This document shows positions 49,829-55,806 of a stretch of 64,000 bases of DNA, piece by piece. Source of the stretch: the human T2T-CHM13v2.0 reference genome, Homo sapiens; the NCBI RefSeq assembly GCF_009914755.1, contig NC_060936.1; one strand, written 5' to 3'. The notes beneath the pieces were generated by a model. It was not told the origin of the DNA. It was given only the letters and a program-made list of their open reading frames with translations, and did no database searches. How positions within the stretch are numbered: position 1 is the stretch's first letter; each line of letters starts with the position of its first letter. The position numbers were made by a program, and so were the translations under genes.

Positions 49829-50374
49829 ATAAATGTGTTCCTTACCTTTAAGATGGCAGTAATACACTAGACACTAGAATACAGAAAACGTTTTTGACTC
49901 CTCTGGATATATTGTGTAATTTATGAATCATATTAGTAAGCTTTTACATTAACATTGATAACAGAAATAAGGTGGCAAAAAGAGGTCTGCTGAGATCTAC
50001 CCTGAGAACAAATATCTGGTCTTTTCATATGAGCTATTGGGACTGAATAGACCATACAAAATCAGTGTTTTTAATGGACATAAGAAAGTCTGTTCTAAAC
50101 TTACAGATAAGATTTTCATAAGGAAATGTGAAAATATTCATTCAACTGTCTTGAAATCATAATGCGTTCAATAAAGAAAGAAGTAATAATTGTTATTATT
50201 ATCATTCTAGTGTTTGCCTTTTAAAACAACTGATAATATAACTTTATGTAATGTGGGCCATTCACTTGAAGGATTGTATTCTATCATGAAGATTAAGGAT
50301 ACTGAGAAATGTTTTGATGCTTAGTTTAATATTTTAATGATGTTTAATGTTTCTTTGACTTTGTATTATTTCAG

Positions 50375-50439
50375 GATTGTTCAACCTTAATTGAAATCAC
50401 TTGCAGTGGGTTTCCATTCAATGGTAATACGATCACTAG
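50375..50439 (+). pseudogene. SLCO1B exon-13 pseudo-exon: IVQP*LKSLAVGFHSMVIRSL
   Basis: 59/65 nt identical to exon 13 at 20924-20988; same length; AG and GT intact; GAA>TAA stop at 50388-50390. Confidence 0.95.
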
Positions 50440-52239
50440 GTATGATGAATACATAGAATATAAATTTAAGATATAAATATTCATATCAAAGAATAAAGAC
50501 CAAATGTAATTAATTTTCAATTATGGGAAAGTTAAAAAAGGAATAAGTAAGGTCCATTATTTTTTGCAATCAATGAAAATAAGAAGAGACAGCGGAAAAG
50601 TGTTACCTAAAAGAGCATTTTAATTGTTATTTCTAGTTCAAATCTATCTGTTAAGAATAAGGAATTATCATATTTTTATTACAGTCTCACTAACCGAGTC
50701 TCTCTCTCTCCTATTCTATGTTAAGAATAAGGAATTATCGTATTTTGGTTACAGTCTAAACCACCGAAAGACAGGTGGTTCTCAAAGTTTCCTTCTTTCA
50801 GAAAGTTAAGAATATTTACCCCAGGTAGGCAGAGTGGAGGACCTTCCTTCTAAACTGAAACATTATTTAGGGAAGGCCTAAAGCAGCTTGGGAGGCCTGG
50901 GAATCTGGCCAGGCTAAGGTTGTGCAAAACGACAGGAGCTAACATTAACTGTGCCACTTCCCACTGCCTGGTCCTGTAAGGCTGGGCAGCTAAGCTTTAG
51001 CAGCAGTTAATGCAAAAAGGAATGAGAACTCAGACTCTAGAACTGGGGATTTTTGATTAAGAGAGGGTTCTGAATAAAGGAAAGCTAAGGAATCGTGTTT
51101 CGCTTGGCAAAGAGTAAGAATGTAGACTCCAGAGGCTAAAGGCTTGTTTATAAATATTTAAAGGTGATGAGAAAAATATTTAGGATATTACTATTTTTCT
51201 TGTTGCCATTTACCATTTTTAGCACACTGGTGCCTGTTATTGTTAAGTAATATCTAGTCTAATCTTTGTGATTGCACCTTTGTAAGAACGGTAAATGTTA
51301 TGTGCTTATTCCTGGGAAGTAGAAAAAGGGCATCATTCATCTAGGGATTGGTGCAGAGGACTGATCCTGGCAACCTTTGATAGCAGAAGGAAAAGAAAAT
51401 GGGAGGGGTTGATTTCTGGAACCTTTGCAAGTAAAGGAAAAAAGTATAACTCTGTGATGGCCAAATTACAAAGGATAAGTTGTCCGAGAAGTATATTTGA
51501 TGAGAAGGTCACAAATCCTCAAAGGTTAGAAACAAAAAAAAGAAAGAAAGAAACATAAAGGGAATAGGAGGGAGGAGATGGAGATGCTGCAGTGTTCCAT
51601 TGGTTCTCTTCCTTGTATTCTCTTTTCTGTGTCTCTAATCTAATCTAATCCAGCTTCTGTGTATCCTGGCAGTTCTCTACCTCCATATTCAATGGAAATA
51701 CCTCACTCCTAGCAGCTGGGCCACAGAAGCTGAATATAGAATCTGGGTAGTTAGCACTCTTTCTGATATGTGGAAATAATAGTAGGAGCAATATTTTTAG
51801 CAATATAAAATAGAAAAAAATGAATTTTACCATTCTAATTATGAGCATCCTATTTTGATGTGCTCAGTATATGGCAGAACGGACTCTAAATGCTTCTACG
51901 GGAAAAATACACAGAGCACCAAACTTCCAATTCACAAATAATTGTCTTGAATACAATATATGTGTAAATTGTGGAAGGCCTATAGTGTATTAAACTGAAA
52001 AAGTTATTTATAAAATGGGTTATGAGAAGTTTTTAAATTGAAGTAATAAATTGTTGGCATATATTTTTCAGTTTTTAAGGATGGCTGTGATTTTTTGATA
52101 ACTGCAAATTTCTCACCCATTTTCTTAGTACCAGTTTTCTTTATATTCACTGGCCTCAATTCATTGTCATTCTAAGATTTCTCACTCTCAGAAAATTAAA
52201 ACCATTAAAAGTAAATGGAATTAGTAAAATTGTGATATA

Positions 52240-52264
52240 AGCAGAGCGATACTCCATCTCAAAA
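52240..52264 (+). mobile_element. Extremely 5'-truncated Alu (about 25 bp) with 14-bp TSD
   Basis: agcagagcgatactccatctcaaaa flanked by aaaattgtgatata at 52226-52239 and 52265-52278. Confidence 0.85.
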
Positions 52265-52429
52265 AAAATTGTGATATATGGATCACTATGATTTTTAGGT
52301 GACAAAATAAAAGTATTCATCACAACACAAAAAAAAACCAAAATAGTCATGAATACTTCAGTGACACCATCTGAAGGACAGCTCTCCACTGTCATGTCCC
52401 TAAAATTTTGGTTAAGATTACCTATGCTA

Positions 52430-52515
52430 GGCTGGGTGCCGTGACTCACGCCTGTAATCTCAGCACTTTGAGGGGCCAAAGTGGGTGAATCGCCTGAAGT
52501 TAGGAGTTCAAGACC
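52430..52515 (+). mobile_element. Alu left-arm 5' fragment, truncated at a deletion junction
   Basis: ggctgggtgccgtgactcacgcctgtaatctcagcactttg...ggagttcaagacc, then abrupt switch to L1. Confidence 0.9.
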
Positions 52516-53781: not shown

Positions 53782-54045
53782 TCTCTACTAGTTGGAAGAG
53801 TTTAAATACCTTGAATAATCTGTTGTATTTGTATTTCTAAAGAAAAAAGAATCTTATGCTTAATTTAATAACAATAACAATTTAATAAACAATATAATAC
53901 AAGTCATTCCCAGAAACAAAATTTATTTTTAACATTAACATAAAATGATATGTTAATTCTGAGAAATTAGTAATATAACCTTTAAAATATAGGAGCCTAG
54001 AGTGAATTCCTAGAATTAGCTAAATATTCTGTTTTCTGTTTACCT

Positions 54046-54108
54046 AGTACAACGACCTAATTGGGTAATCATCATTGGACTCAAAAAAAAATGCTAACTC
54101 TTTAAAAA
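54046..54108 (+). promoter_or_regulatory. Relic SLCO1B-type proximal promoter: IR-1-like (54046-54058), HNF1-like (54064-54076), TATA-like (54101-54108)
   Basis: AGTACA-A-CGACCT, GGTAATCATCATT and TTTAAAAA in the order recalled for SLCO1B3/SLCO1B1 promoters. Confidence 0.65.
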
Positions 54109-54168
54109 GAGACTTTAACAACAGAAAATGGATAGACTTGCTGCAGTTGCTGTAGGTTCTAAATCCAG
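54109..54168 (+). pseudogene. Copy of SLCO1B1/SLCO1B3 non-coding exon 1 with splice donor
   Basis: gagactttaacaacagaaaatggatagacttgctgcagttgctgtaggttctaaatccag|gt vs recalled SLCO1B1 mRNA start AAAGGGTGGACTTGTTGCAGTTGCTGTAGGATTCTAAATCCAG. Confidence 0.8.
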
Positions 54169-54719
54169 GTAGGAACTATGGAGATTGTCTAATGTCAGCA
54201 TGTCTAAATCCAGGTAAGAACCACTGAGATTCTGTAGTATCAATATTTCTTTTATATACAAAATATTTACAAATTTCAGGGAGAAATGTTTTGATGGTCA
54301 TGATAAATATATATTTTATGTTCTGTGTTTTCTATACACTTGTGTTCTGAGTCCTTAGTATTTTATCCTAAGATCTAGAAGAGAGGTGTGGAATAGTTAT
54401 CTAGAAGACTAGGGGAAATATAGGGAAGAGTTATCAGTTATCACTATACACATATATTCTCCAGTGGTACAGCAGGGTGGGAGAAATTATTTAAAGTGGG
54501 GGTATCTGAGAAAATATCAAAATGATATTATTTGGAATAAACCAACTCTTATGACCTAGAGATGAGAGAGAACATTCCAGCTTGAGAAAAATCATAGAGC
54601 AGGGCAGAGAGCTTTTTTCTTGGAACACTGGTTCCATAAGTCTGCAGGTACTTATGGGTGAATTGAGAAATTGACTAAAAATAAGGGCTGGGTTTGGCTT
54701 GTGAAGACCCTCAAACAGG

Positions 54720-55806
54720 AAGTTTTTTTTAAGGCTGAATAATATTTTATCGTGTGTGTGTGTGTGTGTGTGTGTGTGTGTGTATGTTGTCTCTATATAT
54801 ATATACACACACCATGTATATTAAAATATATATATACATACATATATATATATAATGTTTTCTTTATTCATTCATCACTAGCCATTTGGGTTTCTTCTAC
54901 ATCTTGCCTATTGTAAATAGTGCTGCAATGAACATGAATGTGCAAATAAATATCTCTTCAAGATCTCATTTTGAATTATTTTGAATATACACTCAGAAGA
55001 AGGATTAATGGTGCATATAATAATTCTATTTTTTACATTTTGTTGTTTTGGGATTTTTAAGTTTTATGTAGCCCCATTTGTGTATTTTTTATTTCACTGC
55101 CTGTGTTTTTGGTATCATATTTTAAAAGTTATTGCCAAATTCAATGCCCTAAAACTTTCTCCTTCATTTTATTCTGAAGTTTAAGGTCTTACATTTAGGA
55201 ATTTAATACATTTTGAGTTAATTTTTGCATATAGGATAAGGTAAGGGCCCAACTTCATTGCTTTGCATGTGGGTATTCCATTTTCCTAACACCATTTGTT
55301 GAAGAGACTCTCCTTTCCCTATTGTGTAATCTTGGCACCCTTGTTGAAAATCGTTTGTATATTCAAAAGATTGTATCTGAGCTCTCTATTCTGTTTCATT
55401 GGTTTATATAAATATATATTCATGCCAGTACAACACCATCTTAATTACAGTTACTTTGCAGTATGTTTTGAAATCAGGGATGTGAAGCATCCAATTGTGT
55501 TCTTCAAGATTTTTTTTTTTTTTTTAGCCATTCAGGATGTATTAGGATTTTATATAAATTTTAAATGGGGTTTTCCTATCTTTATATAAAATGTCATTGA
55601 AATTTTCATAGAAATTGTGTTAAATCTACACATGACTTTGGATAGCATGGATTTTTTTTAACAATATTAAGTCTTTCAATCCATGAACACAGAATGTTTT
55701 CCCACTTACTAATGTTTTATTTCTTTTATTAGTGTTTTAAATTTTTAATTTTTATGGATACATAGTAGGTATATATATTTATGCAGTACATGACATATTT
55801 TGATAC
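54720..55806 (-). mobile_element. Old L1M fragments with a (TG)n(TA)n microsatellite at about 54752-54855
   Basis: ctattgtaaatagtgctgcaatgaacat; caccatttgttgaagagact. Confidence 0.75.

What the first reader, a model, noticed from the sequence alone, without database searches (positions are those of the whole stretch)
50041..54720. Relic of additional SLCO1B gene copies with permuted order: exon 13, junction, then promoter and exon 1
Seen: 50041-52429 is a collinear diverged copy of SLCO1B1 20595-22482, 29,451 bp downstream at the exon; it ends at a half-Alu fused to a tail-less L1 fragment. Recalled: the unique sequence after it matches SLCO1B1/1B3 exon 1 and promoter. Inference: exon 13 lying upstream of exon 1 on the same strand cannot be one linear gene. 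It suggests two further tandem SLCO1B copies, beyond SLCO1B3, SLCO1B7 and SLCO1B1, collapsed by deletions, or two separate partial duplications. I do not recall this being annotated.
Basis: partly seen in the sequence, partly recalled or inferred. Interest (0 to 1): 0.85.

Follow-up and report, generated by a model that had tools for sequence, protein, structure and literature searches.

The report
Decayed leftovers of extra SLCO1B genes
Just downstream of the drug-transporter gene SLCO1B1 lie dead, unannotated fragments (one exon-13 copy, then a promoter and exon-1 copy) left over from further ancient duplicates of this gene family; they are an evolutionary relic rather than a working gene.

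Summary
Window 47460-52428 is a collinear 70-78% copy of SLCO1B intron 12/exon 13/intron 13. The exon copy (50375-50439) keeps both splice sites but has an in-frame stop. After a junction made of 87 bp of an Alu plus an antisense internal L1 piece, 53788-55727 copies the SLCO1B promoter, exon 1, intron 1 and an old repeat from the intron before the 142-bp exon. That stands for 38-42 kb of parent gene squeezed into 1.9 kb. No other coding exon survives, and RefSeq annotates nothing here.

Both repeats at the junction are truncated, so a later deletion joined the two pieces. The order, 3' part then 5' part on one strand, is that of a boundary between two tandem gene units.

The pieces are about as old as the SLCO1B1/1B3 split (K2P 0.22-0.38) and disagree on affinity (p=0.0015). 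The exon-13 piece is equidistant from 1B1 and 1B3/1B7, promoter/intron 1 is the most diverged, and the old-repeat segment groups with SLCO1B1.

Best reading: a collapsed, non-functional remnant of at least one more SLCO1B unit. Copy number and order of events need other primate genomes. This is a new member of a known kind, of modest interest.

The parts
47126..47459 (.). Dispersed repeat of about 330 bp abutting the left edge of the exon-13 piece. No SLCO1B homology was found to its left.
   Evidence: 39 other genomic places match at 78-84%; a sensitive blastn of 46491-47470 against SLCO1B3/1B1/1B7 intron 12 gave no collinear hit.
47460..52428 (+). Relic of SLCO1B intron 12 / exon 13 / intron 13 (blocks 47460-48445, 48927-49530, 49831-52428), interrupted by two relic-specific Alus (48509-48927, 49526-49842).
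   Evidence: collinear with SLCO1B3 chr12:20772406-20779059 at 70-78%; also matches SLCO1B7 and SLCO1B1; 47460-48445 matches only SLCO1B3 (75%) and, in part, SLCO1B7 (77%) in the genome. SLCO1B1 match from 50042.
50375..50439 (+). Relic exon 13 (65 bp). The AG acceptor and GT donor are kept. There is an in-frame TAA at 50388-50390 (GAA in all three living genes).
   Evidence: alignment, translation IVQP*LKSLAVGFHSMVIRSL; tblastn with OATP1B3 gives 50373-50441, E 2e-5, the only significant coding hit in 38452-63251.
52429..52515 (+). First 87 bp of an Alu. Its natural 5' end sits exactly where intron-13 homology stops, and its 3' two-thirds are missing.
   Evidence: sequence; 75-78% to Alus at 18599-18685, 24767-24854 and 29191-29276.
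52516..53786 (-). Internal L1 ORF2 (reverse-transcriptase) fragment, truncated on both sides. It is fused to the Alu on its 3' side and abuts the promoter relic on its 5' side.
   Evidence: minus-strand ORFs match Pfam RVT_1; 39 other genomic copies at 91-93%; 90.5% to window 9307-10580.
53788..54357 (+). Relic of the SLCO1B proximal promoter, non-coding exon 1 and the start of intron 1. The exon-1 equivalent is about 54110/54127 to 54168. A diverged 45-bp tandem duplication of the exon-1 end/donor lies at 54158-54202 and 54203-54247. A site like the conserved GGTTAATCATCA motif of 1B1/1B3 is changed to GGGTAATCATCA at 54063.
54358..54723 (+). Relic of an intron-1 block (SLCO1B3 20690908-20691269; SLCO1B1 21017195-21017548).
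   Evidence: relic-B3 69%, relic-B1 72%, B1-B3 75-77%.
54845..55727 (+). Relic of an old L1-like repeat that already lay in the ancestral gene, in the intron before the 142-bp exon (blocks 54845-55043, 55056-55590, 55622-55727).
   Evidence: the best genome-wide matches are SLCO1B3 20729694-20730826 (76-77%) and SLCO1B1 21046901-21047750 (78-83%), against 74% or less for the other scored copies..
55804..60196 (.). Later, unrelated L1 insertions that end the recognisable relic on the right.
   Evidence: many-place L1 hits; the best matches of 58097-60531 are elsewhere in the genome, not in SLCO1B genes.

Best explanation
The interval 47460-55727 is the collapsed, non-functional remnant of further SLCO1B gene material that once lay distal to SLCO1B1 in the tandem array. 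It holds the 3' part of one duplicated unit (intron 12, exon 13, intron 13) followed by the 5' part of the next (promoter, exon 1, intron 1, distal part of the following intron). At least one additional promoter-bearing SLCO1B copy therefore existed. The duplication(s) date from about the time of the SLCO1B1 / SLCO1B3-7 split. Afterwards the extra material lost nearly everything through several deletions. The last of these joined an Alu in the relic's intron 13 to an L1 upstream of the relic's promoter. Shown: homology, extents, strand and order, disablement, truncated repeats at the junction, and similar age. Inferred: that the pieces were once parts of long or complete copies, how many copies there were, and that the mixed affinities of the pieces reflect more than one source copy or early gene conversion.
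For: Homology to introns and promoter shows a DNA-level duplicate, not a retrocopy. In the whole genome there are four copies of the exon-13 flank (1B3, 1B7, 1B1, relic) and three copies of promoter/exon 1 (1B3, 1B1, relic; 3 of 3 candidates scored). The exon-13 copy has an in-frame stop. The junction is Alu bases 1-87 fused to an antisense internal reverse-transcriptase piece of L1, and both ends are unnatural. The relic's promoter homology starts at 53788, right after the L1, whereas 1B1-1B3 homology runs at least 1.5 kb further upstream. The 5' piece contains, collinearly, sequence that spans chr12:20689021-20731256 in 1B3 and 21009508-21047750 in 1B1, so it was whittled down from a long copy. 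Age (K2P): the relic is 0.216-0.380 from its paralogues, against 0.231-0.295 for 1B1-1B3 and 0.151 for 1B3-1B7. The relic's Alus are absent from the paralogues. Heterogeneous affinity (chi2 21.5, df 6, p 0.0015) and a rooted test grouping the old-repeat segment with 1B1 (15-19 shared sites against 4-8 and 4-11; 8/1/1 at sites where all outgroup copies agree) fit several source copies or conversion.
Against: Only 1 of 14 coding exons is detectable in 38452-63251. No duplicated copy of SLCO1B1's 3' flank is found. So nothing shows directly that full-length extra genes ever existed. The left edge (47460) and right edge (55727) abut repeats, so the original limits are unknown. The exon-13 tree cannot be rooted: with 1B1 and 1B3 it looks like a star, with a somewhat short relic branch (86/119/114 unique changes). 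The segments are short (272-1199 filtered columns), promoters are under constraint, and gene conversion could imitate multiple sources. My first distance estimate was wrong because of a misaligned SLCO1B1 stretch. This shows how sensitive these numbers are.
Confidence: 0.7

Rival explanations
1. One offset tandem duplication. A single unit running from intron 12 of the gene then upstream (the 1B3/1B7 ancestor) through the whole of SLCO1B1 was duplicated. This gave SLCO1B1, then a partial 3' copy (exon 13 onward), then one extra SLCO1B1-like gene that later decayed. It is a more economical special case of the best explanation: one partial and one full extra copy made in one event.
For: The order and strand fit exactly. 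The old-repeat segment of the 5' piece groups with SLCO1B1, with relic-B1 0.225 against 0.295-0.301 for the other pairs. In the exon-13 piece, relic-1B3 (0.216) is the smallest distance.
Against: The promoter/exon 1 and intron 1 parts of the same 5' piece are further from SLCO1B1 (0.323, 0.327) than 1B1 is from 1B3 (0.231, 0.291), which is the opposite of the prediction. In the exon-13 piece, relic-B1 (0.222) is not larger than relic-B3 (0.216), as the model needs. No second copy of SLCO1B1's downstream flank is seen.
Confidence: 0.3
2. A one-step complex rearrangement (replication template switching) at the time of an array duplication copied short stretches from intron 12-13 and from the 5' end and stitched them in permuted order. 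No further full gene ever existed.
For: Only fragments are present, no other coding exon survives, and the order is permuted.
Against: The present junction is made of primate-age repeats that are both truncated, so it is secondary. The 5' piece keeps four collinear bits spread over 38-42 kb of the parent, which would need several switches that all happen to preserve order and strand. The segments differ in age and affinity.
Confidence: 0.1
3. Two unrelated small duplications that happened to land side by side downstream of SLCO1B1.
For: The pieces differ in phylogenetic affinity.
Against: They share a strand, lie in tandem-boundary order and are of similar age. A deletion scar between them shows that they were once further apart within continuous DNA. 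Each is itself internally deleted relative to the parents.
Confidence: 0.07
4. The fragments are in use. Exon 13's intact splice sites or the relic promoter might serve SLCO1B1 read-through transcripts or a non-coding RNA.
For: The AG/GT of the exon copy are kept. A paediatric-liver RNA-seq study lists SLCO1B1 splice variants with sequence 'in between SLCO1B1 and SLCO1A2' (PMC7214651, passages read). RefSeq places an H3K4me1 hESC enhancer at 48214-48721.
Against: RefSeq has no transcript here. The variant described adds 3 residues after 622, whereas splicing exon 14 to the relic exon would add 4 (IVQP) before the stop. The relic exon has 2 unique changes in 65 bp, against 115 in 1660 four-way columns for its flanks (about 4.5 expected), which is no sign of constraint.
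Confidence: 0.05

Closest known systems
Unprocessed (duplicated) pseudogene fragments in tandem gene clusters
   Same: A DNA-level copy with introns and promoter, on the same strand as the parent array, disabled by a stop codon and by loss of most exons, and riddled with later Alu/L1 insertions.
   Different: Only one coding exon of 65 bp is left, so protein-based pseudogene pipelines would miss it. What is preserved is the boundary between two units (3' part, then 5' part), not one truncated gene.
SLCO1B7, the partly decayed third member of the human SLCO1B array
   Same: Also a product of SLCO1B tandem duplication, and also incomplete. No homologue of promoter/exon 1 is found for it in the genome. 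The literature describes it as a pseudogene that is expressed only through the SLCO1B3-SLCO1B7 read-through LST-3TM12 (PMC7214651, passage).
   Different: SLCO1B7 keeps most coding exons, is younger (1B3-1B7 K2P 0.151) and is transcribed. The relic is older (0.22-0.38), keeps one dead coding exon and has no annotated transcript.
Repeat-bounded genomic deletions (breaks inside Alu and L1 elements, joined without homology)
   Same: The junction 52515/52516 joins Alu position 87 to the middle of an antisense L1 reverse-transcriptase region.
   Different: The two partners are unrelated repeats, so this is not Alu-Alu or L1-L1 recombination. The mechanism (end joining) is inferred and not shown.

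Membership tests
Unprocessed (duplicated) pseudogene / gene relic of SLCO1B | Homology extends into introns and promoter of the parent gene (DNA-level copy) | tested here: met
   intron 12, intron 13, promoter, intron 1 and the distal part of the next intron are all matched at 69-83%.
Unprocessed (duplicated) pseudogene / gene relic of SLCO1B | Coding capacity disabled | tested here: met
   In-frame TAA at 50388-50390. 13 of 14 coding exons are not detectable in 38452-63251.
Unprocessed (duplicated) pseudogene / gene relic of SLCO1B | Lies in or next to the parent tandem array, same orientation | tested here: met
   The relic lies 9 kb downstream of SLCO1B1 exon 15, on the + strand like SLCO1B3, 1B7 and 1B1.
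Unprocessed (duplicated) pseudogene / gene relic of SLCO1B | Not transcribed into a functional product | not testable with these tools
   RefSeq has no transcript here.
Processed pseudogene (retrocopy) | Intronless copy of mRNA with a poly-A tail | tested here: not met
   The copy consists mainly of intron and promoter sequence.
Intact SLCO1B gene (fourth functional paralogue) | Complete set of 14 coding exons with an open frame | tested here: not met
   only the exon-13 equivalent is found, and it carries a stop.
Annotated segmental duplication (by recall: at least 1 kb and at least 90% identity) | At least 90% identity between copies | tested here: not met
   Identities are 69-83%, so it would be absent from such tracks. 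The threshold is recalled and comes from no call.
Substrate of the ~405-kb Rotor-syndrome deletion (SLCO1B3 exons 3-15 plus SLCO1B1) | Deletion breakpoints fall in the paralogous pair SLCO1B3 20729694-20731256 / window 54859-55727 | not testable with these tools
   The offset of the pair is 404.5-405.2 kb and lies inside the array-defined limits (PMC9069145, PMC7750336, PMC11283089 passages). The original paper with the breakpoints is not held. Identity is only about 76%, and Alu pairs with 406-407 kb offsets also exist.

The most novel reading that the evidence does not exclude
The early primate SLCO1B array held more units than the three known today, at least one and perhaps two or three more distal to SLCO1B1, from different duplication rounds. 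The promoter/intron-1 piece would predate the 1B1/1B3 split and the old-repeat piece would be a later SLCO1B1 daughter. Some living primates that lack the late Alu/L1-bounded deletion may then still carry a fuller, or even intact, fourth OATP1B gene. In addition, the relic's paralogous old-repeat segment (54859-55727) may be the distal partner of the ~405-kb Rotor-syndrome deletion that starts in the SLCO1B3 intron before the 142-bp exon.
Probability: 0.15. Interest if true: 0.6.

Novelty: new member of a known kind. Interest (0 to 1): 0.35.

Why it matters
SLCO1B1 and SLCO1B3 are among the most important pharmacogenes (statin and other drug uptake, bilirubin clearance, Rotor syndrome). Their duplication history is usually told as a simple primate-specific split of one ancestral OATP1B gene. 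These relics show that the array was once larger and has been pruned. They give concrete markers (a dead exon 13, a dead promoter/exon 1, a dated deletion scar) for reconstructing that history in other primates.

In practice, the relic adds 70-83% identical paralogous sequence 9-17 kb beyond SLCO1B1. That sequence includes an exon copy with intact splice sites and a promoter copy. It is worth knowing about when read-through transcripts, structural variants or probe and primer designs at this locus are interpreted. If nothing more comes of it, this is an ordinary piece of genomic archaeology.

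Tried and rejected
Chance or repeat artefact: rejected. The E-values run down to 0, the matches are single-place and collinear, and the only genomic relatives are the SLCO1B genes.

Retrocopy: rejected, because introns and promoter are present.

'Relic is sister of SLCO1B3/1B7, SLCO1B1 split first': I concluded this and then withdrew it. Window-by-window counts showed that about 215 non-homologous SLCO1B1 columns (I had started SLCO1B1 at 20380 instead of 20595) inflated its branch. 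The redone alignment and the gap-filtered table give a near star. The same fault recurred (unaligned SLCO1B1 tail) and was removed.

Further relic exons: tblastn with OATP1B3 and masked blastn against 200 kb of SLCO1B3 found none. 58097-60531 looked collinear with SLCO1B3 intron sequence, but its best genomic matches are elsewhere, so it is an independent L1.

Duplicate of SLCO1B1's 3' flank beyond the relic: not found.

Left-edge homology beyond 47460: not found.

Constraint on the relic exon: none detectable (2 unique changes in 65 bp).

Rotor-deletion link: breakpoints could not be obtained, so it stays a lead.

Non-coding RNA: Rfam finds only a U2 pseudogene elsewhere in the window.

(bacterial-type promoter scan) is irrelevant to a human promoter and carries no weight.

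Searches were badly chosen.

Literature: ten searches found no description of these fragments. Only passages returned by 'find' were read, in PMC9508557, PMC4591525, PMC7214651, PMC9069145, PMC3778050, PMC11283089, PMC7750336, PMC12399583, PMC4859970, PMC12846068 and PMC12780193. No whole text was read, and supplements are closed. The supplements of PMC7214651 and of van de Steeg 2012 may bear on the transcript and breakpoint questions. GENCODE and UCSC tracks and other primate genomes could not be consulted. Absolute dates rest on recalled substitution rates.

Full report
THE OBSERVATION. The window is chr12:21080001-21144000 of T2T-CHM13. SLCO1B1 ends at 38451, and SLCO1A2, on the opposite strand, ends at 63252. 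Between them RefSeq lists only repeats and one 'H3K4me1 hESC enhancer' (48214-48721). No SLCO pseudogene is annotated anywhere in the genome table.

50042-52427 is collinear with SLCO1B1 20595-22479 at 73-80% identity. The exon copy at 50375-50439 lies 29,451 bp downstream of exon 13 at 20924-20988.

Whole-genome searches confirm the recalled claim too. 53786-54720 matches only the promoter/exon 1/intron 1 of SLCO1B3 (71% and 69%) and of SLCO1B1 (70% and 76%). In all, the genome holds four copies of the exon-13 flank (1B3, 1B7, 1B1, relic) and three of promoter/exon 1 (1B3, 1B1, relic).

ANATOMY: LARGER THAN REPORTED. I fetched 200 kb covering all of SLCO1B3 and compared the repeat-masked interval 38452-63251 with it.

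The exon-13 piece starts at 47460, not 50041. Its blocks and their SLCO1B3 partners are:
- 47460-48445 to 20772406-20773414 (75%)
- 48927-49530 to 20775884-20776487 (74%)
- 49831-50697 to 20776478-20777349 (77%)
- 50719-52039 to 20777301-20778618 (78%)
- 52045-52428 to 20778694-20779059 (70%)

The two gaps in the relic are Alus that SLCO1B3 lacks. The piece stops about 0.9 kb short of where exon 14 would be. The exon copy keeps its AG and GT, but GAA has become TAA at 50388-50390.

The 5' piece also runs further than reported. After 53788-54357 (promoter, exon 1, start of intron 1) and 54358-54723 (an intron-1 block also present in SLCO1B1 at 21017195-21017548) come 54845-55043, 55056-55590 and 55622-55727. 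These three blocks are an old L1-like repeat. Their best matches in the whole genome are the same spot of SLCO1B3 (20729694-20731256, 76-79%) and of SLCO1B1 (21046901-21047750, 78-83%), 3-4 kb upstream of the 142-bp exon. The other scored copies reach 74% or less. So 1.9 kb of relic stands, in order and on the same strand, for 38-42 kb of the living genes.

A tblastn with the OATP1B3 protein finds no other coding exon in the interval, so 1 of 14 is present. Beyond 55804 lie unrelated L1s. To the left of 47460 lies a 330-bp dispersed repeat and then nothing SLCO1B-like.

THE JUNCTION IS A DELETION SCAR. Intron-13 homology stops at 52428, exactly at base 1 of an Alu, of which only 87 bp remain. 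Those 87 bp are fused to 52516-53786. This stretch is an L1 piece on the minus strand whose open frames match reverse transcriptase, so it has no 3' end. Its other end abuts the first base of promoter homology (53788). SLCO1B1 and SLCO1B3 stay alignable for at least 1.5 kb further upstream of that point.

The simplest reading has three steps. An Alu had inserted in the relic's intron 13. An L1 had inserted upstream of the relic's promoter. One deletion then removed everything between the middle of each. Other copies of this L1 are 91-93% identical to it (39 scored). By recalled L1 chronology that is an anthropoid or catarrhine-age element, so the deletion is younger still. The original distance between the two pieces is unknown.

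AGE AND AFFINITY. My first four-way alignment suggested that SLCO1B1 split first. Window-wise counts exposed about 215 misaligned SLCO1B1 columns, and I withdrew that claim.

The redone alignment (1660 columns) gives these K2P distances:
- 1B3-1B7: 0.151
- relic-1B3: 0.231
- relic-1B7: 0.240
- relic-1B1: 0.237
- 1B1-1B3: 0.260

A uniform, gap-filtered three-way table reads as follows. Unique changes are given for relic/1B1/1B3, and the distances are K2P.

| Segment | Columns | Unique changes | relic-1B1 | relic-1B3 | 1B1-1B3 |
|---|---|---|---|---|---|
| Exon-13 piece | 1199 | 86/119/114 | 0.222 | 0.216 | 0.255 |
| Promoter/exon 1 | 316 | 40/32/21 | 0.323 | 0.268 | 0.231 |
| Intron-1 block | 272 | 38/23/32 | 0.327 | 0.380 | 0.291 |
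| Old-repeat segment | 391 | 32/30/51 | 0.225 | 0.301 | 0.295 |

The four segments differ significantly (chi2 21.5, df 6, p 0.0015).

Only the old-repeat segment can be rooted, because other copies of that repeat serve as outgroups as they stand. With each of four such copies, the relic shares 15-19 derived-looking sites with SLCO1B1, against 4-8 with 1B3 and 4-11 for 1B1+1B3. At sites where all four outgroup copies agree the counts are 8, 1 and 1.

In summary, all pieces are roughly as old as the 1B1/1B3 split. The exon-13 piece is unresolved. The promoter/intron-1 part looks the most diverged. The old-repeat part is an SLCO1B1 relative. This mosaic fits either several extinct source copies fused by deletions or early gene conversion. 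Short segments and promoter constraint are caveats.

The literature passages I read say that mouse, rat, dog and pig have one OATP1B, whereas humans and other primates have two (PMC12780193, PMC12846068). By recalled substitution rates, 0.11-0.15 per lineage puts these events near the base of primates.

WHAT IT IS. A 3' gene part followed on the same strand by a promoter and 5' part is what the boundary between two tandem gene units looks like. Add the deletion scar and the whittled-down 5' piece, and the best explanation is a collapsed, dead remnant of at least one further SLCO1B unit distal to SLCO1B1 (confidence 0.7).

One offset duplication unit (from intron 12 of the upstream gene through SLCO1B1) is an economical special case. 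It is supported by the old-repeat segment and contradicted by promoter/intron 1. A one-step template-switching patchwork, two independent small duplications and a present-day function are each less likely, for reasons given under the rivals.

I found no evidence of function. RefSeq has no transcript here, and the exon copy shows no constraint (2 unique changes in 65 bp). The SLCO1B1 splice variant with residues 'in between SLCO1B1 and SLCO1A2' (PMC7214651) adds 3 residues, whereas the relic exon would add 4.

COMPARISON WITH WHAT IS KNOWN, AND NOVELTY. This is an unprocessed pseudogene relic of a tandem family, which is a known kind. It fails the tests for a retrocopy and for an intact gene. 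It is too diverged for segmental-duplication catalogues (recalled 90% threshold) and too short in coding sequence for protein-based pseudogene finders, which may be why RefSeq has nothing. Ten literature searches found no description of it. GENCODE and browser tracks could not be checked. I rate it a new member of a known kind, with interest 0.35.

A LEAD SEEN ON THE WAY. The paralogous pair SLCO1B3 20729694-20731256 / window 54859-55727 lies in direct orientation, 404.5-405.2 kb apart. The Rotor-syndrome 'R2' deletion is described as about 405 kb, removing SLCO1B3 exons 3-15 and all of SLCO1B1 (PMC11283089 passage). Array limits in two papers bracket positions compatible with this pair, assuming hg19 and T2T are collinear here (PMC9069145; PMC7750336). 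However, identity is only about 76%, Alu pairs with 406-407 kb offsets exist too, and the paper holding the breakpoints is not available. It is a coincidence worth one look, no more.

Noticed in passing
window 54859-55727 and chr12:20729694-20731256 (L020/L021): These paralogous segments lie in direct orientation, 404.5-405.2 kb apart. That equals the reported size of the ~405-kb Rotor-syndrome deletion (SLCO1B3 exons 3-15 plus SLCO1B1), and the pair falls within the limits set by array data. Identity is only about 76%, and Alu pairs at 406-407 kb offsets also exist. The breakpoints could not be obtained.
   Followed up: partly
whole genome; SLCO1B7 region chr12:20880000-20894225: No homologue of the SLCO1B promoter/exon 1 is detectable for SLCO1B7. 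Only SLCO1B3, SLCO1B1 and the relic match. This fits its expression through the SLCO1B3-SLCO1B7 read-through.
   Followed up: partly
window 29928-30104: The RefSeq 'uncharacterized pseudogene' LOC124903123 in SLCO1B1 intron 14 matches Rfam U2 spliceosomal RNA (51 bits, gathering score 46, full model length). It is therefore a U2 snRNA pseudogene or copy.
   Followed up: yes
window 50375-50439: The relic exon 13 keeps a canonical acceptor and donor. A published liver RNA-seq study reports SLCO1B1 variants that skip the last exon and continue into the SLCO1B1-SLCO1A2 interval (PMC7214651). The residue count (3 against 4) does not match this exon, and the coordinates may be in closed supplements.
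   Followed up: partly
window 21463/21480 against 50913-51456: SLCO1B1 intron 13 lacks about 544 bp of unique sequence that SLCO1B3, SLCO1B7 and the relic all have, so this is a SLCO1B1-specific deletion. SLCO1B1 also lacks any counterpart of relic 47460-49530, which SLCO1B3 (and partly SLCO1B7) have.
   Followed up: partly
window 54158-54247: A diverged 45-bp tandem duplication of the exon-1 end and splice donor gives the relic two donor-like sites (54168/9 and 54213/4).
   Followed up: yes
window 50649-50687 and 50719-50757: A 39-bp local direct repeat (92%) inside the relic's intron-13 part. It explains the overlapping BLAST blocks there.
   Followed up: no
window 48214-48721: The RefSeq functional element 'H3K4me1 hESC enhancer' lies inside the relic's intron-12 part and overlaps a relic-specific Alu (48509-48927). 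Its significance is unknown.
   Followed up: no
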